A program made the position numbers and the translations under genes. From a virus (Duplodnaviria; Heunggongvirae; Uroviricota; Caudoviricetes), in IMG/VR virus record IMGVR_UViG_3300029214_000137: a DNA stretch of 5,421 nucleotides. One strand, 5' to 3'. This document shows, piece after piece, positions 1 to 5,421 of this stretch. The stretch's first letter is position 1. The number at the start of each line of letters is the position of its first letter. A model generated the notes under the pieces. The model was not told the origin of the DNA. It did not search any database and was given only the letters and a program-made list of their open reading frames with translations.

Positions 1-316
1 CGTATTTCTCACGGATTACGGCGTCTATTTTTTCTTCCATCCGTTTATAGTCAGGAAGAAGGCGTTTCAGTGGAGCGGGAATATCCTGGCAATACGCTTC
101 TGTTGCATCATGCATTAACGCTTCAAAAGCAAATTCCTGCGGCACCAGCTGGCTGCAAAGCACCGCATGTTGGGCGACACTGTAGAAGTGAGAAAGATGA
201 CCGGCAAAGCGGCAGATATTTGAAAGGGAAACCGCGATATCGTTAATAACGATGTCGTCTTTATTTATCCTGTCATAATAAAAATGCTTCCCAGAAAAAG
301 TTGTAATAAATGACAT
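1..316 (-). CDS. HD-domain metal-dependent phosphohydrolase, YfdR-like (N-terminal ~105 codons; gene continues beyond window start)
   Basis: Minus-strand ATG at 316-314 with GGAGA (complement of 322-326) 5 nt upstream. Translation MSFITTFSGKHFYYDRINKDDIVINDIAVSLSNICRFAGHLSHFYSVAQHAVLCSQLVPQEFAFEALMHDATEAYCQDIPAPLKRLLPDYKRMEEKIDAVIREKY carries the H...HD metal-binding signature (SVAQHAV ... LMHDATE) of HD-superfamily nucleotidases. Absent from the ORF track because it is cut by the window edge. Similarity to E. coli CPS-53 YfdR is recalled from memory, not searched. Confidence 0.7.
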   Translation of the reverse strand, partial: MSFITTFSGKHFYYDRINKDDIVINDIAVSLSNICRFAGHLSHFYSVAQHAVLCSQLVPQEFAFEALMHDATEAYCQDIPAPLKRLLPDYKRMEEKIDAVIREKY

Positions 317-440
317 TTTGTTCTCCACGTATATGCGCTGCACCGCGCTGAATTCGGGTAAAAGAAAGCCCTCACCGTCCGGCGATTATTGAGTCAATTA
401 CATTTCCATGAATGCCCCCGTAGGGGCGGTTAGTTTCTCC

Positions 441-529
441 ACAAAACAGAGAAGAACACCTGCGGTGGCAGCCGCCCGGATGGATTGGGTTATGAGCTCG
501 TCGTCCGGTGATGCTCTTCTCTGTTTTGT
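441..529. repeat. 15-bp perfect inverted repeat (ACAAAACAGAGAAGA at 441-455 / TCTTCTCTGTTTTGT at 515-529) flanking a 59-bp GC-rich spacer
   Basis: Arms are exact reverse complements and cannot be extended at either end. The spacer itself has internal complementarity (CCGGA 476-480 / TCCGG 504-508; palindromic GAGCTC at 495-500). Function unknown. Confidence 0.6.
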
Positions 530-573
530 AAAAAGGACGGTACCAGCCGGAAGCAAGGGTACAAGCTGGTACC
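530..573 (-). terminator. Candidate intrinsic terminator for leftward transcription (9-bp stem, 17-nt loop, U-tract)
   Basis: GGTACCAGC (539-547) and GCTGGTACC (565-573) are exact reverse complements. On the minus strand the hairpin is followed by GUCC then UUUUUA (complement of 529-534). The U-tract is offset 4 nt from the stem, so this is a weak call. Confidence 0.3.
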
Positions 574-610
574 TCCAAGACTACACACAGCAATGAAACT
601 ATTGCCTGTC

Positions 611-640
611 TTTTCACCACTTCAGGCTCGGTGGTATGCT
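611..640 (+). promoter_or_regulatory. Candidate sigma70 promoter for the 672-1013 ORF (extended -10 TGgTATGCT; weak -35 TTTTCA)
   Basis: TG at 632-633, -10 hexamer TATGCT at 635-640 (4/6 to TATAAT), -35-like TTTTCA at 611-616 with 18-bp spacer; about 30 nt upstream of the ATG at 672. Pattern match only. Confidence 0.3.
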
Positions 641-671
641 GGAGTTCTCACACAGCCAGCAAGGAAACCTA

Positions 672-1013
672 ATGAACCAGTTTTATGTTCACGTTCGTCT
701 GTTTGAAGCAACAGCCGAACAGACCAAAAAATTTGAAGAATTAATGCTTAACTTTCTGTACCAGAAAACAATCAAAGAGTCTGACGATAGCTGCTGCAGA
801 CTGATTCCAGAGGGATATATCCTCAAAAGCACAATGAACTGCCAACAAATCCTTGATCAAACTTTTTCCATTGCTAACAGTGCTGGTGTTGACGCAAATA
901 TATTTGTCTGCAAATTTGAACAAAGCGCATGCTTACTTCCGTCTGCTTCCTTAGTTGGCAACGATTTTGTTCATCACGATCTTACGCCTAAGCCCATCAA
1001 GCTCGATTCTTAA
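672..1013 (+). CDS. Hypothetical protein (113 aa), rightward-oriented orphan gene embedded in the leftward early region
   Basis: ATG at 672 preceded by AAGGAA (661-666). In frame with the longer track ORF 636-1013, but the 636 ATG lies inside the putative -10. Enteric-typical codon usage, AT-rich (~40% GC by eye). Product MNQFYVHVRLFEATAEQTKKFEELMLNFLYQ... not recognised. Its last 63 bp overlap the convergent 951-1259 gene, which lowers confidence. Confidence 0.5.
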   Translation: MNQFYVHVRLFEATAEQTKKFEELMLNFLYQKTIKESDDSCCRLIPEGYILKSTMNCQQILDQTFSIANSAGVDANIFVCKFEQSACLLPSASLVGNDFVHHDLTPKPIKLDS

Positions 1014-1259
1014 TGCCTTAACCATTGTGTCGTGATAAACACGGCTCACCCTCTCTCCATTGCATGGCAGGGGGGTGATCGTGTTAGCCATGAAATTCAT
1101 GAACTTGGTTCGATCAGGGTCTTGCGCCCCGCAAGTCTTTAATGCCTGTTTTGCTAACAAAATACGGGCCTCAGTGCCTGCATTTGGCTCTATCTGCTGC
1201 AAACGTTTAGCGTCTTCCAGCAACAATGCGATCACATGCTTCAAATTCTGCTCATTCAT
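951..1259 (-). CDS. Hypothetical protein (102 aa), first gene of the PL-driven early-left operon (positional analogue of lambda N, not recognisable as N)
   Basis: Minus-strand ATG at 1259-1257 with a strong GGAGAG Shine-Dalgarno 5 nt upstream (complement of 1265-1270). Lies ~100 nt downstream of the PL-like promoter. Product MNEQNLKHVIALLLEDAKRLQQ... lacks the arginine-rich N-terminal motif of lambda N. Confidence 0.6.
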   Translation of the reverse strand: MNEQNLKHVIALLLEDAKRLQQIEPNAGTEARILLAKQALKTCGAQDPDRTKFMNFMANTITPLPCNGERVSRVYHDTMVKALRIELDGLRRKIVMNKIVAN

Positions 1260-1412: not shown

Positions 1413-1464
1413 GGTTTGAACGAGTGGCCAAGGAGTGCAAGGATTATCAAAAAAAGGAGGTTGT

Positions 1465-2355
1465 ATGGAAGACGCGCTTTACGCTTTTAATTACACACAG
1501 AACCGGGACAAGTTATTTGCTAACTTGATTAGCATCATTGATGGAATCATTGCAGATGGAGTTGTCCGTGAAGAGGAGGTTCTTTACTTAGATACATGGT
1601 TACTTGAAGCAAAGCAGATTATCAATAATGGAGTTATAAAAAGTCTATCTGCACGGGTGTCGGATATTCTTGCGGATGGAATAATCACATCAGAAGAACG
1701 TGATGACCTTAAAAATAGCCTTCTCCAAATACAGAGGGAAATTCTTGATATCCCTGAAATTGATTTTTACTCCAAGGATGTAGATGTCCATTTACTTAAT
1801 GGACTATGTAAAGGATTAATTGCTGATCGGAACTTAACTCAAGAAGAAATAAGATATCTTAATTGGTGGCTTGAGCAAAATGGAGCTTTGAAGAACAACT
1901 ACCCAGGAAAAAAACTTTATGCACTTGTAAAGGAAATTCTTAAAGATGGTGTTATTACTGAAGATGAGAGTTTAACTCTACATAAGGCATTAGTAGACTT
2001 CACAGGATGTGACTTGGAAAGTGGGGTGGTGGATGGTTTGGCGACCAGGCTGCCTATTGATGTAGAGGCTTCGATAGAGTTAGAGGGTAAAACCTATTGT
2101 CTTACAGGCACTTTTGTTGCAGGAAAGAGAGCCGTAGTTGAAAATTTGATTAAAAATGCTGGTGGGAACATCAGTAGTGGAATTACTCAACAGTTGGATT
2201 TTTTAGTAATTGGGACGCTTTCCTCCCGTGATTGGAAATTCTCTAGTCACGGAAGGAAGATCGAAAAGGCTATATCTTATAGAGATGATAATGGTGCAAA
2301 ACTTAAAATTATTTCTGAAGAAATGCTTTTCGATGCATTACCAAGTTCGCGATGA
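1465..2355 (+). CDS. TerB-like repeat / BRCT-domain protein (296 aa); candidate prophage cargo (exclusion/defence) gene at the rex-equivalent site
   Basis: ATG at 1465 with AAGGAGG (1454-1460) 4 nt upstream; the track's longer ORF starts at a GTG at 1435 with no RBS. N-terminal two-thirds hold four ~22-aa repeats with the motif [IL]-A-D-G-x-[IV]-x-x-E-E (IADGVVREEEVLYL, LADGIITSEERDDL, IADRNLTQEEIRYL, LKDGVITEDESLTL), as in TerB/DjlA-N helical hairpins. The C-terminal ~85 aa (GKTYCLTGTF...QLDFLVIGT...KLKIISEEMLFDAL) follow the BRCT pattern of the LigA C-terminus (GKT-x-V-LTG ... D-x-L-V-x-G ... K-A). ~38% GC in a sampled 60-nt stretch versus ~58% in the Dam gene. Confidence 0.8.
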   Translation: MEDALYAFNYTQNRDKLFANLISIIDGIIADGVVREEEVLYLDTWLLEAKQIINNGVIKSLSARVSDILADGIITSEERDDLKNSLLQIQREILDIPEIDFYSKDVDVHLLNGLCKGLIADRNLTQEEIRYLNWWLEQNGALKNNYPGKKLYALVKEILKDGVITEDESLTLHKALVDFTGCDLESGVVDGLATRLPIDVEASIELEGKTYCLTGTFVAGKRAVVENLIKNAGGNISSGITQQLDFLVIGTLSSRDWKFSSHGRKIEKAISYRDDNGAKLKIISEEMLFDALPSSR

Positions 2356-3024
2356 CCAGAATACCCTACCTATAACATGAATTCTGGCTCGTCTATCTTC
2401 AAAGGTAAGTATTTCATCTGGGTACTCATCTTTGTTGAAGCTTCTAAGAATCAAGCCACCGTCAGGTAAGTTGATAAGTATTTTAACCCTTAGCAATACA
2501 CCATCTCGTACGGCATAAAGATCGCCATCACGAATAGGAACGGTTTGAGAAATATCAACGGCAACAAGATCTCCATTATTGAGAACCGGTAATAAACTGT
2601 TCCCCCATATTTTTACGATCTTGGCATTAGATGCACATACGCCAGATTTTCTCAAATCTGCTCTTCTTAACGGAAACCAGTCAATAGCTGATTCAACTAT
2701 TTCAGCCAGACATCCGTTACCTGCCGATAACTCGACATCTAAAACAGGAATGTTTACGAAAATATCGGGGTCTAATGCGGTGCTTTCTGCTTCTTTTACA
2801 ACAAGATCAGGTATGGATGCGTTGTCTTCAATACCAAGTTGTAACCACTTTTGTGATACACCTAAAACTTTTGCAATTTCTTTAATTTTGCGCGGTTGTA
2901 GAGTTTCGCCATTCTCTATTTTGGCTACAGATTGTTGTGAAAGTCCAATTTTTTCAGCTAGTTGAGCTTGGCTCATGCCAGCTTTCTCTCTACCTATCTT
3001 TAATCGTTCTGCCAGTGTTTTCAC
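2338..3024 (-). CDS. cI: Phage immunity repressor, cI-like (N-terminal XRE-type HTH + C-terminal S24 LexA-like autopeptidase domain), 228 aa
   Basis: GTG start at 3024-3022 with AGAGGGA 6 nt upstream on the minus strand. N-terminus MKTLAERLKIGREKAGMSQAQLAEKIGLSQQSVAKIENGET is a classic HTH_XRE. C-terminal half has an Ala-Gly cleavage site (ELSAGNG), a Ser in G-N-S-L and a Lys in LLRVKIL, consistent with the S24 Ser/Lys dyad, and ends ...IGRVFWSSRTW as in P22 C2/lambda cI-type repressors. Flanked by operator clusters on both sides. Confidence 0.9.
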   Translation of the reverse strand: MKTLAERLKIGREKAGMSQAQLAEKIGLSQQSVAKIENGETLQPRKIKEIAKVLGVSQKWLQLGIEDNASIPDLVVKEAESTALDPDIFVNIPVLDVELSAGNGCLAEIVESAIDWFPLRRADLRKSGVCASNAKIVKIWGNSLLPVLNNGDLVAVDISQTVPIRDGDLYAVRDGVLLRVKILINLPDGGLILRSFNKDEYPDEILTFEDRRARIHVIGRVFWSSRTW

Positions 3025-3159: not shown

Positions 3160-3408
3160 ATGACACCTGAGCAATTAGCCTTATCGGAGGCAATCGCTCT
3201 GGCTGGTGGTCAATCAGAATTGGCTCGGAAGCTCACAGCCAGCAGCGGTCATTTAGTAAAGCAACAACATGTCTGGAACTGGTTGAACAGAGAAAAGCGT
3301 CCCCCTGCAAAGCTCTCGATATTCATTGAAAAGACCACTGGCATATCAAAAGAAAAATTACGTCCAGATATTTTTCAAAAGATTAAAGATTCATCAGATG
3401 AAAAGTAA
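3160..3408 (+). CDS. cro: Cro-like small HTH regulator (YdaS/Cro family), 82 aa
   Basis: ATG at 3160 with AAAGGAG (3147-3153). Divergent from the repressor across the operator cluster. Product MTPEQLALSEAIALAGGQSELARKL...WNWLNREKRPPAKLSIFIEKTTGISKEKLRPDIF has the YdaS/Cro-type HTH pattern (TG-x-S-x-E-x-LRPD). Confidence 0.85.
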   Translation: MTPEQLALSEAIALAGGQSELARKLTASSGHLVKQQHVWNWLNREKRPPAKLSIFIEKTTGISKEKLRPDIFQKIKDSSDEK

Positions 3409-3430: not shown

Positions 3431-3988
3431 GTGGGTAAGCATCACTGGAAAGTAGAAAAACAGCCTAAGTGGTACGTGAAAGCTGTCAGAAAAACTATCG
3501 CAGCGTTGCCGGGGGGTTACGCTGAAGCAGCTGACTGGCTGGATGTAACAGAGAACGCATTATTTAACCGCCTTCGTGCCGATGGCGATCAAATTTTCCC
3601 GCTGGGATGGGCGATGATTTTACAACGTGCTGGTGGCACTCACTTCATTGCTGACGCTGTGGCGCAGTCTGCAAATGGCGTCTTTGTGTCTCTTCCTGAC
3701 GTCGAGGATGTGGATAACGCCGATATTAACCAGCGCCTGCTGGAAGTCATTGAACAGATTGGCAGTTATTCCAAACAGATTCGTTCGGCAATCGAAGACG
3801 GTGTGGTGGAACCGCATGAGAAGACAGCAATTAACGACGAGCTGTATCTCTCAATTTCGAAGCTGCAGGAGCATGCAGCACTTGTCTACAAAATTTTTTG
3901 CATTTCAGAAAGTAATGACGCCCGCGAGTGTGCAGCTCCGGGCGTCGTGGCGTCGATTGCTTCTGGTTGTGGAGAAACTAACGCATGA
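3431..3988 (+). CDS. CII-like / YdaT-family regulatory protein (186 aa)
   Basis: GTG at 3431 with AAGGAG (3419-3424) 6 nt upstream, 22 bp after the cro stop; the track's longer ORF (from 3326) would overlap cro. Position immediately after cro and size fit the CII(CP76)/YdaT family of lambdoid prophages. Family assignment is by position and recalled pattern, not searched. Confidence 0.7.
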   Translation: MGKHHWKVEKQPKWYVKAVRKTIAALPGGYAEAADWLDVTENALFNRLRADGDQIFPLGWAMILQRAGGTHFIADAVAQSANGVFVSLPDVEDVDNADINQRLLEVIEQIGSYSKQIRSAIEDGVVEPHEKTAINDELYLSISKLQEHAALVYKIFCISESNDARECAAPGVVASIASGCGETNA

Positions 3989-4116
3989 ACAGTTTAACAA
4001 CACACTACCGTCGCTCGCAACTGATTGCGCTTCCTGGAGCGGTGCTTACGGAAAAGCAGCAAGTGCGCTGTATCGGGTGATGAGTGGTATCTGTCAGGGA
4101 ATTACGTGGGGGCTTA

Positions 4117-4770
4117 ATGAGTAATAAATATTGGCAGGCGCTGGTGGAACTGCGGAACAAACCAGCCCATGAACTGAAGGAAGTGGGCGATCAGTGGCGC
4201 ACGCCGGACAACATTTTCTGGGGAATTAACACCCTGTTTGGCCCGTTTGTTCTGGATCTGTTCACTGACGGTGATAACGCCAAATGTGCCGCGTATTACA
4301 CGGCGGAAGACAACGCGCTGGCGCATGACTGGTCAGAACGTCTTGCGGAGCTTAAAGGTGCTGCCTTTGGTAATCCCCCATACAGCCGCGCCAGTCAGCA
4401 TGAGGGGCAATACATCACCGGCATGCGTTACATCATGAAGCATGCCAGTGCCATGCGTGATAAAGGCGGGCGCTATGTTTTCCTGATCAAAGCGGCCACC
4501 AGCGAAGTGTGGTGGCCGGAAGATGCAGATCATATTGCTTTTATTCGCGGGCGTATTGGTTTTGAACTACCTGCCTGGTTTATACCGAAGGACGAGAAGC
4601 AGGTGCCGACAGGTGCTTTCTTCGCTGGTGCCATTGCTGTTTTCGACAAGACCTGGAAGGGATCGGCAATCAGCTACATCGGGCGCGATGAACTTGAGGC
4701 ATGTGGTGAGGCCTTTCTGGCGCAGGTTCGCCAGCAGGCGGAAAAACTGGTCAGGGAGATGGCGGCATGA
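4117..4770 (+). CDS. Phage Dam-type DNA N6-adenine methyltransferase (217 aa)
   Basis: ATG at 4117 preceded by GGGGG (4108-4112); the track ORF begins at an in-frame GTG at 4084. Product has the catalytic NPPY motif (AAFGNPPYSRA) and an N-terminal W-R-T-P-D-x-x-F ... Y-Y-T-A-E-D-N-A-L layout typical of phage Dam (Pfam Dam-like) enzymes of lambdoid nin regions. ~58% GC in a sampled stretch. Confidence 0.85.
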   Translation: MSNKYWQALVELRNKPAHELKEVGDQWRTPDNIFWGINTLFGPFVLDLFTDGDNAKCAAYYTAEDNALAHDWSERLAELKGAAFGNPPYSRASQHEGQYITGMRYIMKHASAMRDKGGRYVFLIKAATSEVWWPEDADHIAFIRGRIGFELPAWFIPKDEKQVPTGAFFAGAIAVFDKTWKGSAISYIGRDELEACGEAFLAQVRQQAEKLVREMAA

Positions 4771-5093
4771 CGACATTAACTCAATGCCAGCAGCAGGTGC
4801 TGGATATGCTGATTTCTTACCAGCAAGAACGTGGCTTTCCGCCAACCAATCAGGAGGTGGCAACCATGCTGGGATACCGTTCGGTGAATGCAGCGGTGGA
4901 GCATCTTCGCGCACTGGAGAAAAAAGGCGTCATCACGATAAAGCGTGGCGTGGCCCGGGGGATAACTCTTCATACCGCGGTGAAGGACGACGACAGCGAG
5001 GCGGTCGGGATTATCCGCGCACTGCTTGCCGGTGAGGAAAACGGCAGGCTGCGTGCAGCCCACTGGTTACATGAGAGGGGCCTGAAAGTATGA
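4767..5093 (+). CDS. LexA N-terminal DNA-binding-domain protein without peptidase domain (108 aa)
   Basis: ATG at 4767 overlaps the Dam stop (ATGA at 4767-4770). Product MTTLTQCQQQVLDMLISYQQERGFPPTNQEVATMLGYRSVNAAVEHLRALEKKGVITIKRGVARGITL parallels the LexA winged-helix domain (LexA: ...LTARQQEVFDLI...[46 protein letters not shown]). No Ala-Gly site or S24 domain follows. Confidence 0.7.
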   Translation: MTTLTQCQQQVLDMLISYQQERGFPPTNQEVATMLGYRSVNAAVEHLRALEKKGVITIKRGVARGITLHTAVKDDDSEAVGIIRALLAGEENGRLRAAHWLHERGLKV

Positions 5094-5421
5094 AGCTGAT
5101 CCTGCCGTTTCCCCCCAGCGTGAACACGTACTGGCGACACCCCAACAAAGGGGCTTTTGCAGGTAAGAGCCTGATAAGCGCGGCGGGGCGTAAATTCCAG
5201 GGCGCGGCGTGTGCCGCCATCATTGAGCAGTTACGCCGTCTGCCGAAACCAACGTCGGCACCAGCTTCAGTGGAGATCGTGTTGTTTCCTCCGGATAACC
5301 GGATCCGCGATCTGGACAACTATAACAAGGCGCTGTTTGACGCCCTGACCCACGCGGGTGTGTGGGAAGACGACAGTCAGGTGAAAAGAATGCTGGTGGA
5401 GTGGGGACCGGTTATCCCGGA
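5090..5421 (+). CDS. rusA: RusA-family Holliday junction resolvase (5' part; continues beyond window end)
   Basis: ATG at 5090 overlaps the stop of the preceding gene (ATGA). Translation MKLILPFPPSVNTYWRHPNKGAFAG...IVLFPPDNRIRDLDNYNKALFDALTHAGVWEDDSQV matches RusA hallmarks (PPS-x-N-x-Y, RRRDLDN-like acidic catalytic cluster, FDAL, DD). Not in the ORF track because it has no stop inside the window. Confidence 0.85.
   Translation, partial: MKLILPFPPSVNTYWRHPNKGAFAGKSLISAAGRKFQGAACAAIIEQLRRLPKPTSAPASVEIVLFPPDNRIRDLDNYNKALFDALTHAGVWEDDSQVKRMLVEWGPVIP

What the first reader, a model, noticed from the sequence alone, without database searches (positions are those of the whole stretch)
441..573. 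Long perfect inverted repeat and adjacent hairpin in a non-coding gap of the early-left region
A 15-bp exact inverted repeat (441-455 / 515-529) encloses a 59-bp GC-rich segment with its own internal complementarity. It is followed by a second exact 9-bp stem (539-547 / 565-573) that on the minus strand precedes a U-tract. The structures sit in a ~350-bp stretch (317-671) with no convincing ORF on either strand, between the divergent HD-domain gene and the 672-1013 ORF. Possibilities include a tL-type terminator complex for PL transcription, a structured small RNA, or a recombination/protein-binding site. A retron msr/msd-like element was considered but no reverse transcriptase gene is nearby.
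Basis: seen in the sequence. Interest (0 to 1): 0.5.

Follow-up and report, generated by a model that had tools for sequence, protein, structure and literature searches.

The report
Phage leader RNA mimicking initiator-tRNA anticodon arm
The two inverted repeats are real RNA structures in the untranslated leader of a prophage's "early-left" operon: a transcription terminator, then a conserved, apparently undescribed three-armed RNA, one arm of which copies the anticodon stem-loop of the initiator tRNA.

Summary
Both repeats are exact and lie at the stated coordinates. The 15-bp repeat exceeds chance: the longest repeat in 60 shuffles was 12 bp.

Both structures belong to RNA read on the minus strand, the direction of the yfdR/xis/int "early-left" operon of an e14/SfV/ST64B-type prophage.

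- **Hairpin 539-573 plus U5.** This is the intrinsic terminator that ends an STnc100-like (Rfam RF02076) leader RNA. About 159 nt of that RNA are missing in this window.
- **The long repeat.** It is helix P1 of a ~105-nt three-way junction, P1-A-P2-P3-A-P1'. The junction is conserved across many Enterobacterales prophages and shows strong covariation.
- **The P2 arm.** Its tip, GGGCUCAUAACCC, is identical to the E. coli tRNA-fMet anticodon stem-loop. This window's copy carries a G-to-A defect in that stem.
- **Wider distribution.** The same core sits in leaders upstream of holin genes in other phages, and in an Acidobacteria prophage.

Rfam 15 has no family for the junction, and no paper in the searched library holds its sequence. 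In E. coli K-12 the locus is annotated as the CDS ymfH, which is probably spurious.

The function is not demonstrated. I infer a cis-acting post-transcriptional control element that works by initiator-tRNA mimicry. The rivals are a processing site, the binding site of an antitermination factor, and a decoy RNA.

The parts
603..667 (-). Remnant of the region upstream of the STnc100-like RNA (the -35 side of its putative promoter). The -10 region and about 159 nt of the RNA are missing relative to SfII and K-12 e14.
   Evidence: Alignment with SfII, E. coli L009, ST64B and K-12 e14. The same short junction occurs in 18 of 5426 complete E. coli genomes. The promoter assignment was made by eye only; the scan found no consensus sigma-70 site.
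574..592 (-). Conserved 3' segment of the STnc100-like RNA (UUGCUGUGUGUAGUCUUGG) just 5' of the terminator hairpin.
   Evidence: Conserved in SfII, ST64B, phiNP, Kp4866-6 and others. It aligns to about positions 150-175 of the RF02076 model in relatives.
535..576 (-). Hairpin H2. The exact 9-bp core is 539-547/565-573, extended to about 13 bp, with a 15-17-nt loop. It is the terminator stem of the STnc100-like RNA.
   Evidence: -21 kcal/mol, z -3.6. The stem sequence is fully swapped in relatives (GGUACCAG / GGCGUC / GGUUAUCCA / GGCGCC) while pairing is kept. It aligns to the terminal hairpin of RF02076.
530..534 (-). U-tract (UUUUU) of the terminator. It can also pair with GGAGA at 436-440 to lengthen P1.
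   Evidence: Invariant CUUUUUAC in 24 of 24 aligned sequences; fold.
510..529 (-). P1, 5' strand (RNA ACAAAACAGAGAAGAGCAUC).
   Evidence: 20 pairs, 94.5% of cells paired, 6 pairs with changes on both sides.
476..508 (-). P2 arm: CCGGA-CGAC-GAG-CUCAUAA-CCC-AAUCCA-UCCGG. The tip (487-499) is the look-alike of the initiator-tRNA anticodon stem-loop. Base 498 (T on the plus strand, A in the RNA) breaks the middle G-C pair that other copies have.
   Evidence: Near-invariant core in all relatives. P2 lower stem: G-C to A-U double changes at two positions. The window-specific change is seen.
462..475 (-). P3, a short variable hairpin (GCGG-CUGCCA-CCGC). In relatives it is 14-45 nt, often with a ..UCCUAA.. 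loop.
   Evidence: 2 of the 4 base pairs at the foot of P3 change on both sides. Length classes are not multiples of three.
441..460 (-). P1, 3' strand (RNA GGUGUUCUUCUCUGUUUUGU). This is the left arm of the long inverted repeat.
   Evidence: Covariance model R1 matches window 432-534 on the minus strand at 112 bits, against 42 bits on the plus strand.
429..440 (-). Conserved single-stranded 3' flank GGAGAAACUAAC, which resembles a Shine-Dalgarno sequence. Its 16-mer (429-444) is identical to 3967-3982 on the plus strand.
   Evidence: GGAGA is conserved in nearly all enterobacterial copies.
414..427 (-). Hairpin H0 (GCCCCUACGGGGGC) between the junction RNA and the first ribosome-binding site. 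It is also the deletion or recombination joint that removed yfdP-yfdQ here.
   Evidence: The stem sequence is swapped in relatives with pairing kept. Fold -12 kcal/mol. It is duplicated at both joints in mEp460.

Best explanation
The finding is the 3' two-thirds of a composite RNA leader transcribed on the minus strand. It lies ahead of the early-left operon (here yfdR...xis-int) of an e14/SfV/ST64B-type lambdoid prophage.

Step 1, shown by homology and structure. A short STnc100-family RNA starts upstream and ends at hairpin 535-576 plus U5, an intrinsic terminator. In this window most of that RNA and its likely -10 region are deleted.

Step 2, shown by covariation. Transcripts that read through the terminator fold into a ~105-nt three-way junction. 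Its long basal helix P1 is the 15-bp repeat, extended to 20-25 bp. Its P2 arm displays GGG-CUCAUAA-CCC, the three G-C pairs and CAU loop of initiator tRNA-fMet. Its P3 arm is variable.

Step 3, inferred. A host component that reads the initiator anticodon arm recognises the junction. I favour the 30S P site with IF3; MetRS or a tRNA-fMet-specific nuclease are alternatives. This sets translation or stability of the first cistron once the operon is switched on. The leader would then gate expression twice, first by termination and then post-transcriptionally.

The copy in this window is probably impaired. Its anticodon-like stem is broken at base 498, its promoter is truncated, and yfdP-yfdQ are lost.
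For: Strand and RNA nature.
- 1040 of 1089 pair cells are standard on the minus-strand RNA, against 989 on the plus strand.
- There are 58 G.U cells on the minus strand and 7 on the plus strand.
- Model R1 scores 112 bits on the minus strand and 42 bits on the plus strand.

Covariation.
- 95.5% of cells are paired.
- 10 pairs and 57 cells change on both sides.
- 0 of 500 shuffles reach the observed covariation score.
- Slid controls give 38-55% paired.

The H2, H0 and P3 stems are rewritten in relatives with pairing kept.

Terminator. H2 plus the U-tract aligns to the terminal hairpin of RF02076. Full-length sub-threshold matches occur in E. coli L009 (45.1 bits), SfII (39.5) and ST64B (35.1).

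Position. The element always lies directly 5' of the first early-left gene, yfdP/sb37.

Mimicry.
- The 13-nt tip equals the E. coli tRNA-fMet anticodon stem-loop. The tRNA sequence is from my own knowledge.
- The 20-nt core ACGGGCUCAUAACCCAAUCC is identical in at least four structurally unrelated contexts. These are the enterobacterial early-left leaders, a family lying between a terminator and a holin gene, a gut-metagenome family upstream of exo/recT, and an Acidobacteria prophage.
- Identity across phyla argues that the ligand is universally conserved.
- In an unbiased sample drawn through the neighbouring Sb37/YfdP protein, 72 of 80 loci carry the GGGCUCAU[A/U]ACCC-type tip; 68 match it exactly and 4 have a single base change.

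Not coding. Element lengths are 103, 104, 105, 106, 107, 112, 123...134 nt, and annotations of the locus are inconsistent between records.
Against: - No expression, binding or processing data were available, so step 3 is inference only.
- 6 of 80 Sb37-linked loci keep P1 but carry a different interior (GGG-AACUAAC-CCU plus another P3). Mimicry of tRNA-fMet is therefore not obligatory in this slot. That favours a cassette-specific ligand.
- The flanks of the tip (AC / AAUC) are as invariant as the tip itself and are not tRNA-like.
- C28 faces A42 rather than G42.
- No AUG lies at a suitable distance from the GGAG flank.
- I found no covariation between loop position 37 and the base before the start codon.
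- MFE energies alone do not discriminate between the strands.
- No consensus promoter was found upstream in intact relatives.
Confidence: 0.5

Rival explanations
1. RNA processing or stability element that occupies the 'tRNA slot' of antiterminated phage leaders. The long P1 duplex would be cut by RNase III, or the tRNA-like junction would be cut by tRNA-processing enzymes. Cleavage would separate the upstream short RNA from the mRNA and set the mRNA's 5' end and half-life. On this view the anticodon-arm resemblance is a relic of a tRNA gene.
For: P1 is 20-25 bp of nearly perfect duplex in the enterobacterial family. In Gifsy-1 a real tRNA-Arg lies downstream of isrJ, where L155 has isrJ followed by the element. 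L063 has a tRNA-Gln about 250 nt downstream of the element.
Against: A long duplex is not conserved. In the late-leader family P1 is only 5-7 bp, and the Acidobacteria form lacks P3. There is no CCA-like 3' flank and no T-loop or D-arm signature. ARAGORN and the Rfam tRNA model find nothing. Strict invariance of the 20-nt core is more than a processing site would need.
Confidence: 0.2
2. Recruitment site for a processive antitermination factor, phage- or host-encoded, in the manner of nut/boxB, LoaP or put. It would load onto RNA polymerase after the first terminator and carry it through internal terminators of the operon.
For: The element sits at the start of long operons that contain further terminator-like hairpins, for example minus-strand 385-372 ahead of yfdR. 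No N homologue was found among the window's proteins or in the mEp460 annotation, although mEp460 belongs to a collection of Nus-dependent phages (PMC11893012). Two side-by-side hairpins recall the V-shaped put RNA (PMC9378689). Interior cassettes are exchangeable, as expected of specificity modules. Many P3 loops share CCUAAC.
Against: There is only one copy per phage (the whole mEp460 genome), whereas nut and put sites come as left and right pairs. The element lies downstream, not upstream, of the first terminator. There is no boxA, and no arginine-rich N-like protein in the window. In late leaders a Q protein already supplies antitermination (L044). Identity of the core across phyla is hard to reconcile with a phage-specific protein.
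Confidence: 0.17
3. Trans-acting RNA released from the leader. It would act as a decoy or sponge for enzymes that target tRNA-fMet, such as VapC/MvpT-type PIN toxins that cut the initiator anticodon loop, or for another defence system.
For: The three consecutive G-C pairs plus the CAU loop are read by few factors. VapC of Shigella and Salmonella cleaves tRNA-fMet at A38/C39 (own knowledge; reviews PMC7180214 and PMC5408214 were retrieved but not read). The hosts include Shigella and Salmonella. The long P1 would stabilise an excised RNA. Overexpressing K-12 ymfH, which is this locus, triggers the retron-Sen2 toxin RcaT (bioRxiv 10.1101/2020.06.22.160242).
Against: The element has no terminator of its own. 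I have no evidence that a discrete stable species exists. A decoy would have to compete with abundant tRNA-fMet. The alternative cassette lacks the CAU loop. The position is fixed immediately 5' of a cistron, which suggests action in cis.
Confidence: 0.08
4. The region encodes a small protein (YmfH / SfII_35 on the minus strand, or mEp460 gp36 on the plus strand), and the inverted repeats are incidental.
For: CDSs are annotated here in K-12 (ymfH, b1142), SfII (SfII_35), mEp460 (gp36) and sal3 (gp049). The window has ORFs of 82 aa (372-620, minus) and 62 aa (408-596, plus).
Against: The annotations disagree in strand, frame and extent. Insertions and deletions inside the element come in lengths of 1, 3, 4, 9, 20-31 nt. 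Substitutions are compensatory for RNA pairing, and in the plus-strand frame read they mostly change the amino acid. The ORF is broken by the 159-nt deletion in this window.
Confidence: 0.03
5. A DNA-level element: a cruciform, a recombination site, or an operator bound by a dimeric protein.
For: The repeat is perfect in DNA. Mosaic joints between phages fall at H0 and at the P1 arms.
Against: 58 pair cells are G.U on the minus strand but mismatches on the plus strand, against 7 the other way. The element is conserved in phages whose repressors differ in annotated length and family (distinct CI-like C-terminal domains in L254 and L194). Three-helix covariation is not expected of an operator.
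Confidence: 0.02

Closest known systems
STnc100 (Rfam RF02076), a prophage-encoded ~200-nt RNA of Gammaproteobacteria, related to PasD
   Same: The upstream part of the leader, ending in hairpin 535-576 plus the U-tract, aligns along the whole model in intact relatives. It is prophage-borne and terminator-ended.
   Different: All the scores are below the gathering threshold of 47 bits: 45.1, 39.5 and 35.1. The window itself gives no hit, because about 159 nt are missing. Published STnc100 copies lie in late regions, near Q or downstream of stx2 (PMC12370729; bioRxiv 10.64898/2026.05.13.724894). This one heads the early-left operon. The model stops where the long hairpin begins, so the junction RNA is not part of STnc100.
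thrS operator of E. coli, an mRNA leader that mimics the tRNA-Thr anticodon arm (own knowledge)
   Same: It is a 5' leader hairpin copying a tRNA anticodon stem-loop, placed just upstream of a ribosome-binding site.
   Different: The thrS operator mimics tRNA-Thr and is bound by ThrRS encoded by the same mRNA. Here the model is tRNA-fMet, no synthetase gene follows, the ligand is unknown, and the hairpin is one arm of a three-way junction.
HK022 put RNAs (putL, putR)
   Same: They are phage leader RNAs of about 70 nt built from two adjacent stem-loops that act without a dedicated phage protein. They occur in lambdoid phages lacking N-type antitermination (PMC9378689).
   Different: put sites come in two copies per phage and lie upstream of the terminators they suppress. 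This element is single-copy, lies after the first terminator, is closed by a long P1, and shows no detectable sequence similarity (no HK022 hit).
Lambda-type nut sites (boxA plus the boxB hairpin)
   Same: A small conserved hairpin loop in an early leader, with cassette-like variation between phages.
   Different: There is no boxA, no N-like arginine-rich protein and no right-hand copy. The conserved loop is a 7-nt anticodon-type loop on three G-C pairs.
tRNA genes in lambdoid late leaders, such as Gifsy-1 tRNA-Arg after isrJ
   Same: They occupy the same slot: downstream of a short terminated RNA, upstream of lysis or late genes (compared with L155).
   Different: This element is not a tRNA. 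It has no D or T arms and no acceptor end, and ARAGORN and the Rfam tRNA model are negative.
ymfH (b1142), the annotated CDS of E. coli K-12 prophage e14
   Same: It is the same locus. K-12 ymfH (L275 5070-5381, minus strand) covers the junction RNA, H2 and part of the STnc100-like RNA. It is the first 'gene' of the ymfH-xisE-intE operon (PMC12133099).
   Different: My evidence says the conserved object is an RNA structure, not a protein. The K-12 copy is itself degenerate: its loop reads UUAAUAA, and it scores 87.7 bits against 110-120 for intact copies.

Membership tests
Rfam STnc100 (RF02076) | Covariance-model score at or above the gathering threshold (47 bits) | tested here: not met
   The window gives no hit at E<=1. 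Intact relatives score 45.1, 39.5 and 35.1 bits. They are relatives of the family, not members by Rfam's criterion.
Rfam STnc100 (RF02076) | 3' terminal hairpin plus U-tract aligned to the end of the model | tested here: met
   In L009 and SfII the H2 hairpin and CUUUUUAC align to about model positions 175-206. The window's H2 is orthologous to these.
Rho-independent terminator | G+C-rich stem directly followed by a U-tract on the transcribed strand | tested here: met
   About 13-bp stem, -21 kcal/mol, then UUUUU. The U-tract is invariant and the stem covaries.
Rho-independent terminator | Actual release of transcripts at the U-tract | not testable with these tools
   Needs Term-seq, 3' RACE or in vitro transcription.
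Genuine tRNA gene | Cloverleaf with acceptor, D, anticodon and T arms | tested here: not met
   ARAGORN finds 0 genes. There is no Rfam tRNA hit in the window.
Initiator-tRNA anticodon-arm mimic | Three consecutive G-C pairs closing a CUCAUAA loop | tested here: met
   GGGCUCAUAACCC is found in all intact relatives. In ST64B-type copies the loop is CUCAUUA. The window copy has GAG/CCC, so the middle pair is broken.
Initiator-tRNA anticodon-arm mimic | Recognition by a factor that reads tRNA-fMet (30S P site with IF3, MetRS, VapC) | not testable with these tools
   Needs binding, toeprint or cleavage assays.
HK022 put RNA | Two copies per phage (putL, putR), each upstream of the terminators it suppresses | tested here: not met
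   There is a single R1 match in the complete mEp460 genome and one per locus elsewhere. The element lies 3' of H2.
Lambda-type nut site | boxA plus boxB, a cognate N protein, and left and right copies | tested here: not met
   Single copy. No boxA was seen and no N-like protein is present among the window's ORFs.
Retron msr/msd | Adjacent reverse-transcriptase gene | tested here: not met
   No reverse-transcriptase domain is present in any window protein. Neighbouring genes in relatives are yfdP, yfdQ, yfdR, ymfI and cI.
Protein-coding gene (ymfH / SfII_35) | Reading frame conserved among homologues | tested here: not met
   There are 14 length classes that differ by non-multiples of three. 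Annotations are inconsistent in strand and frame.
RNase III processing site | About 20 bp or more of near-perfect dsRNA, conserved across the family | tested here: inconclusive
   Met in the enterobacterial copies, which have 20-25 bp. Not met in the late-leader family, where P1 is 5-7 bp.
Known self-cleaving ribozymes or riboswitches with three-way junctions | Match to any Rfam 15 model | tested here: not met
   No family overlaps the junction RNA in the window or in the 18 relative loci scanned, 15 of which carry the element. Seventeen were scanned at E-value limits of 0.05-5 and Gifsy-1 at gathering thresholds.

The most novel reading that the evidence does not exclude
The junction RNA is a true molecular mimic of the initiator-tRNA anticodon arm built into phage operon leaders from Enterobacterales to Acidobacteria. 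It would either dock in the 30S P site, giving a cis-acting control of translation initiation by P-site mimicry, or bait tRNA-fMet-specific nucleases such as VapC. Either would be a new class of phage regulatory or counter-defence RNA.
Probability: 0.2. Interest if true: 0.85.

Novelty: new variant of a known kind. Interest (0 to 1): 0.62.

Why it matters
- **Scale.** Sequence similar to window 300-680, which includes this leader, matches 3015 of 5426 complete E. coli genomes, often several places per genome. Homologues of the element were found in Salmonella, Shigella, Klebsiella, Citrobacter, Enterobacter and other prophages. It heads the operon that ends in xis and int, so it may influence excision and early lytic functions.
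- **Annotation.** The motif has no Rfam family. In the reference genome of E. coli K-12 it is filed as a hypothetical protein, ymfH. Recognising it as RNA would correct that annotation. It would also recast the published finding that the ymfH clone triggers a retron toxin.
- **Mechanism.** If the mimicry of tRNA-fMet is functional, it would be a rare case of an mRNA leader copying the initiator anticodon arm. It would give a direct experimental handle on how phages tune initiation, or evade tRNA-targeting defences.
- **Evolution.** Its recurrence after terminators in both early-left and late leaders points to a portable 'terminator plus structured RNA' cassette in phage operon design.

Tried and rejected
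- **Second copy (nutL/nutR or putL/putR).** The 'two places per record' in the BLAST output looked like a second copy. It was only the yfdR-upstream segment, separated from the element by yfdP-yfdQ in other phages. The covariance model later confirmed one copy per phage.
- **Antisense sRNA against an antirepressor RBS.** The 16-nt identity between 429-444 and 3967-3982 suggested a trans antisense RNA (c4/ant-like) or a shared box. On the two early transcripts it is the same sense, not antisense. It is absent from ST64B, phiNP, Klebsiella and other copies, and it does not covary. I now read it as a shared RBS-type sequence.
- **Pas sRNAs of pathogenic E. coli.** These lie in late regions and are unrelated.
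- **Strand assignment from folding energy.** This was indecisive: 60 of 89 sequences favoured the minus strand, with near-equal means. I replaced it with pair-level G.U counts.
- **Anti-SD plus anticodon clamp on the downstream start site.** The P3 loop UCCUAA resembles the 16S 3' end. However, the actual ribosome-binding sites offer only 3-6 bp of complementarity, with no consistency between families.
- **Loop position 37 pairing with the base before the start codon.** I found no covariation.
- **Presence in K-12 CPS-53.** The element is absent upstream of yfdP there.
- **Presence in Gifsy-1.** Gifsy-1 has no STnc100 and no element.
- **Literature search by sequence.** It found nothing.
- **Promoter scans.** They found no consensus sigma-70 promoter upstream in intact relatives.
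Full report
**1. The observation**

Both inverted repeats are in the sequence exactly as described. Arms 441-455 and 515-529 are perfect 15-mers, extending to 25 nt at 84% complementarity. Arms 539-547 and 565-573 are perfect 9-mers. A 15-bp perfect repeat with a loop of 100 nt or less is the longest in the window. Sixty dinucleotide-preserving shuffles never exceeded 12 bp. On the minus strand, 429-538 folds at -46.2 kcal/mol (z = -6.3). The second hairpin folds at -21 kcal/mol (z = -3.6) and is followed by UUUUU.

**2. Genomic setting**

The window is the immunity and early region of an e14/SfV/ST64B-type lambdoid prophage:

| Coordinates | Strand | Feature |
|---|---|---|
| to 316 | minus | yfdR, HD-domain 5'-deoxynucleotidase |
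| 672-1013 | plus | ymfI |
| 951-1259 | minus | ymfJ |
| 1435-2355 | plus | BRCT-domain protein |
| 2338-3024 | minus | CI-like repressor |
| 3160-3408 | plus | Cro/YdaS-like protein |
| 3431-3988 | plus | CII/YmfL-like protein |
| 4084-4770 | plus | Dam methylase |
| 4767-5093 | plus | protein with a LexA DNA-binding domain |

The finding lies in the gap between the divergent yfdR and ymfI genes. That gap is the leader of the leftward operon that ends in xis and int.

**3. Conservation**

- The whole query, window 300-680, matches 3015 of 5426 complete E. coli genomes.
- The core 416-592 is 92-97% identical in most of the 61 matching phage records, including SfII, SfIV, SfV, mEp460, cdtI and the Stx2c and Stx2a phages. 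It is about 83% identical in ST64B, phiNP and Klebsiella phages.
- Pattern scans added copies from Kosakonia, Enterobacter, Citrobacter, Buttiauxella, Mixta, Phytobacter, Pseudescherichia, Erwinia and Klebsiella, plus more than 120 IMG/VR contigs.
- In every intact case the element lies directly 5', on the minus strand, of the first early-left gene yfdP/sb37.
- In this window yfdP and yfdQ are missing. The joint is at a hairpin (414-427) that is duplicated at both ends of the missing segment in mEp460.

**4. The second hairpin is a terminator of an STnc100-like RNA**

- In intact relatives, Rfam's STnc100 model (RF02076, 206 positions) aligns end to end on the minus strand. Scores are 45.1 bits in E. 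coli L009, 39.5 in SfII and 35.1 (partial) in ST64B. The gathering score is 47.
- The stem is rewritten in different lineages (GGUACCAG, GGCGUC, GGUUAUCCA, GGCGCC) with pairing kept, and the U-tract is invariant.
- Relative to SfII, L009 and K-12 e14, the window lacks about 159 nt. The gap runs from just after a candidate -35 region to about position 150 of the RNA. The same short form occurs in 18 of 5426 E. coli genomes.
- No consensus sigma-70 promoter is predicted in intact relatives. The promoter assignment (AAGACA-17-TATTTT in SfII) was made by eye only.

**5. The long repeat is helix P1 of a three-way junction RNA**

The alignment of 33 distinct sequences (A3) supports the architecture P1-A-P2-P3-A-P1'.

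- P1 has 20 pairs and can be lengthened by U-tract:GGAGA pairing.
- P2 is CCGGG-CGAC-GGG-CUCAUAA-CCC-AAUCCA-CCCGG.
- P3 is a hairpin of 14 to about 45 nt.

| Measure | Result |
|---|---|
| Cells forming standard pairs | 95.5% |
| Pairs with changes on both sides | 10 |
| Cells with changes on both sides | 57 |
| Shuffles reaching the observed covariation score | 0 of 500 |
| Cells paired when partners are slid 1-3 columns | 38-55% |

The strand is settled at the level of individual pairs. There are 58 G.U cells on the minus-strand RNA and 7 on the plus strand. Standard pairs number 1040 and 989 of 1089 respectively. For example, pair 26:104 is U.G in 28 sequences, C-G in 3 and U-A in 2.

A covariance model built from A3 scores the window at 112 bits on the minus strand and 42 on the plus. 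It finds a single copy in the complete mEp460 genome.

**6. The P2 tip copies the initiator-tRNA anticodon stem-loop**

- GGGCUCAUAACCC is identical to positions 29-41 of E. coli tRNA-fMet: three consecutive G-C pairs and the loop C32-U33-CAU-A37-A38. The tRNA sequence is from my own knowledge. ARAGORN finds no tRNA here.
- The window copy has A in place of the middle G (base 498 is T on the plus strand). This breaks one of the three pairs, and other copies do not share it.
- The 20-nt core ACGGGCUCAUAACCCAAUCC recurs, with different P1 and P3, in other families:
  - a family placed between a terminator and a holin/lysis cassette (L032, L154-L158, L163-L169);
  - L044 and L181, after a Q-like gene and a terminator;
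  - L155, after the sRNA isrJ;
  - a human-gut family upstream of an exo/recT operon (L063, L173);
  - an Acidobacteriaceae prophage (L019).
- A local alifold of the late-leader family returns the same P1-A-P2-P3-A-P1' topology. R1 detects these families at 25-40 bits.
- In a sample chosen through the neighbouring protein Sb37/YfdP, and so not through the RNA, 72 of 80 loci carry the GGGCUCAU[A/U]ACCC-type tip; 68 match it exactly and 4 have a single base change.
- Six of the other eight keep P1 but carry a different interior, GGG-AACUAAC-CCU plus another P3. The interior therefore behaves as an exchangeable cassette.

**7. Not coding, not a DNA site, not in Rfam**

- Element lengths fall in 14 classes (103, 104, 105, 106, 107, 112, 123...134 nt). 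These are incompatible with a conserved reading frame.
- The annotated CDSs over the locus disagree in strand and frame: K-12 ymfH, SfII_35, mEp460 gp36 and sal3 gp049.
- No Rfam 15 family overlaps the junction RNA in the window or in the relatives scanned, at E-value limits of 0.05-5 depending on the scan.
- No paper in the searchable library contains the core sequence.

**8. What is known about the locus**

- In E. coli K-12 the whole cassette lies in prophage e14 and is annotated as ymfH, the first member of the ymfH-xisE-intE operon.
- ymfH is listed among the YmfT iModulon genes together with other e14 genes (PMC12133099).
- The K-12 copy is degenerate, with the loop UUAAUAA.
- Overexpressing the ymfH clone was reported as a trigger of the retron-Sen2 toxin RcaT (bioRxiv 10.1101/2020.06.22.160242). 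Whether RNA or peptide is responsible was not tested.
- STnc100 itself has been found in late regions, downstream of stx2 and near Q (PMC12370729; bioRxiv 10.64898/2026.05.13.724894). Its function is unknown.

**9. How it most likely works**

Shown:
- The leader is transcribed leftward in relatives, according to operon annotation and expression data for K-12.
- It contains a terminator-type hairpin, followed by a covarying three-way junction whose core is invariant across phyla.

Inferred:
- The terminator limits basal entry into the operon.
- Read-through transcripts carry the junction RNA, which acts in cis after transcription.
- The only part conserved from Enterobacterales to Acidobacteria is a copy of a universally conserved tRNA element. 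I therefore favour recognition by a host factor that reads the initiator anticodon arm. The 30S P site with IF3 is my first choice, with MetRS or a tRNA-fMet-specific nuclease as alternatives.
- The conserved GGAG directly 3' of P1 fits a ribosome-related role.

I put about 0.85 on 'functional minus-strand RNA structure' and about 0.8 on 'H2 is the terminator of an STnc100-like RNA'. I put only about 0.3 on the mimicry mechanism itself.

Evidence against the favoured mechanism:
- The alternative interior cassette exists.
- The non-tRNA flanks AC/AAUC are as invariant as the tip.
- No suitably placed AUG follows the GGAG flank.

**10. Rivals**

- **Processing or stability element in the 'tRNA slot'.** Gifsy-1 has a real tRNA-Arg after isrJ, where L155 has the element.
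- **Loading site for an antitermination factor.** The single copy and the position after the first terminator argue against it.
- **Released decoy RNA.**
- **Protein-coding gene.**
- **DNA-level site.**

The last two are close to excluded.

**11. State of this particular copy**

Three features suggest a decaying copy in a defective prophage:
- the broken G-C pair in the anticodon-like stem;
- the 159-nt loss, which removes the probable -10 region and most of the STnc100-like RNA;
- the loss of yfdP-yfdQ.

Transcripts from the minus-strand promoter-like site at 1401-1373 could still reach H2.

**12. Verdict**

The terminator half belongs to a known kind of element. The junction RNA with the initiator-tRNA look-alike appears undescribed. 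It is widespread and structurally well supported, but its function is unknown.

Noticed in passing
window 429-444 (plus strand) versus 3967-3982 (plus strand): A 16-nt exact reverse-complement match. Both early transcripts therefore carry UUGUGGAGAAACUAAC. The right-hand copy is the RBS region at the end of the CII/YmfL-like gene. It is also present (14-15 of 16 nt) in SfII, mEp460, Stx2a_1447 and Pseudescherichia L026, but not in ST64B, phiNP or Klebsiella. A similar GUGGAGAAC precedes the yfdR start (321-328).
   Followed up: yes
window 1435-2355 (plus strand): A 306-aa protein with a C-terminal BRCT domain (Pfam 1.4e-06) and a weak PADLOC hit to the candidate defence family PDC-S48 (2.4e-07). 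It sits in the variable cargo slot next to the repressor gene.
   Followed up: partly
window 672-1013 (plus strand) and 951-1259 (minus strand): ymfI and ymfJ homologues are convergent and overlap by 63 nt. Neither has a Pfam or PADLOC match. A promoter-like site (TTGACA-17-TAAATT) lies at 1401-1373 on the minus strand, ahead of ymfJ.
   Followed up: partly
window 3985-4083, compared with mEp460 L004 33097-34248 and ST64B L005 8378-9535: Relatives carry an isrK / c4-a1b1 / C4 antisense RNA module with an antirepressor-like gene after the CII-like gene. The window has only a 31-codon ORF there, and then Dam. The P1-type immI-like module has been lost.
   Followed up: partly
window 316-427, compared with mEp460 L004 29385-29513 and 30806-: yfdP and yfdQ (DUF2303) are absent from the window. 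The joint coincides with a GC-rich hairpin that is present at both ends of the missing segment in mEp460. This suggests deletion or recombination at repeated hairpins.
   Followed up: yes
L275 (E. coli K-12 e14) 5070-5381, minus strand: The annotated CDS ymfH (b1142) coincides with the junction RNA, the terminator and part of the STnc100-like RNA. The K-12 copy has a mutated loop (GGGUUAAUAACCC). A published screen found the ymfH clone to trigger the retron-Sen2 toxin.
   Followed up: partly
L254 and L270, 1035-1161: An alternative interior cassette sits inside the same P1 helix: GGG-AACUAAC-CCU plus a CU-rich long hairpin. The 7-mer AACUAAC is the same as the single-stranded 3' flank of standard elements, which these variants lack.
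   Followed up: partly
L170 (Gifsy-1) 33093-33480, and L155 956-1240: The short RNA isrJ is followed by a tRNA-Arg in Gifsy-1, but by the anticodon-arm-mimic element in L155. Real tRNAs and the mimic occupy the same slot in late leaders.
   Followed up: partly
window 372-385, minus strand: A weak terminator-like hairpin (UCGCCGGACGGUGA followed by GGGCUUUCUUUU) lies between the leader and yfdR. The same segment precedes yfdR in mEp460 and Stx2a_1447.
   Followed up: no
window 4767-5093 (plus strand): A 108-aa protein consists only of a LexA-type DNA-binding domain, without the peptidase domain. It lies downstream of Dam.
   Followed up: no
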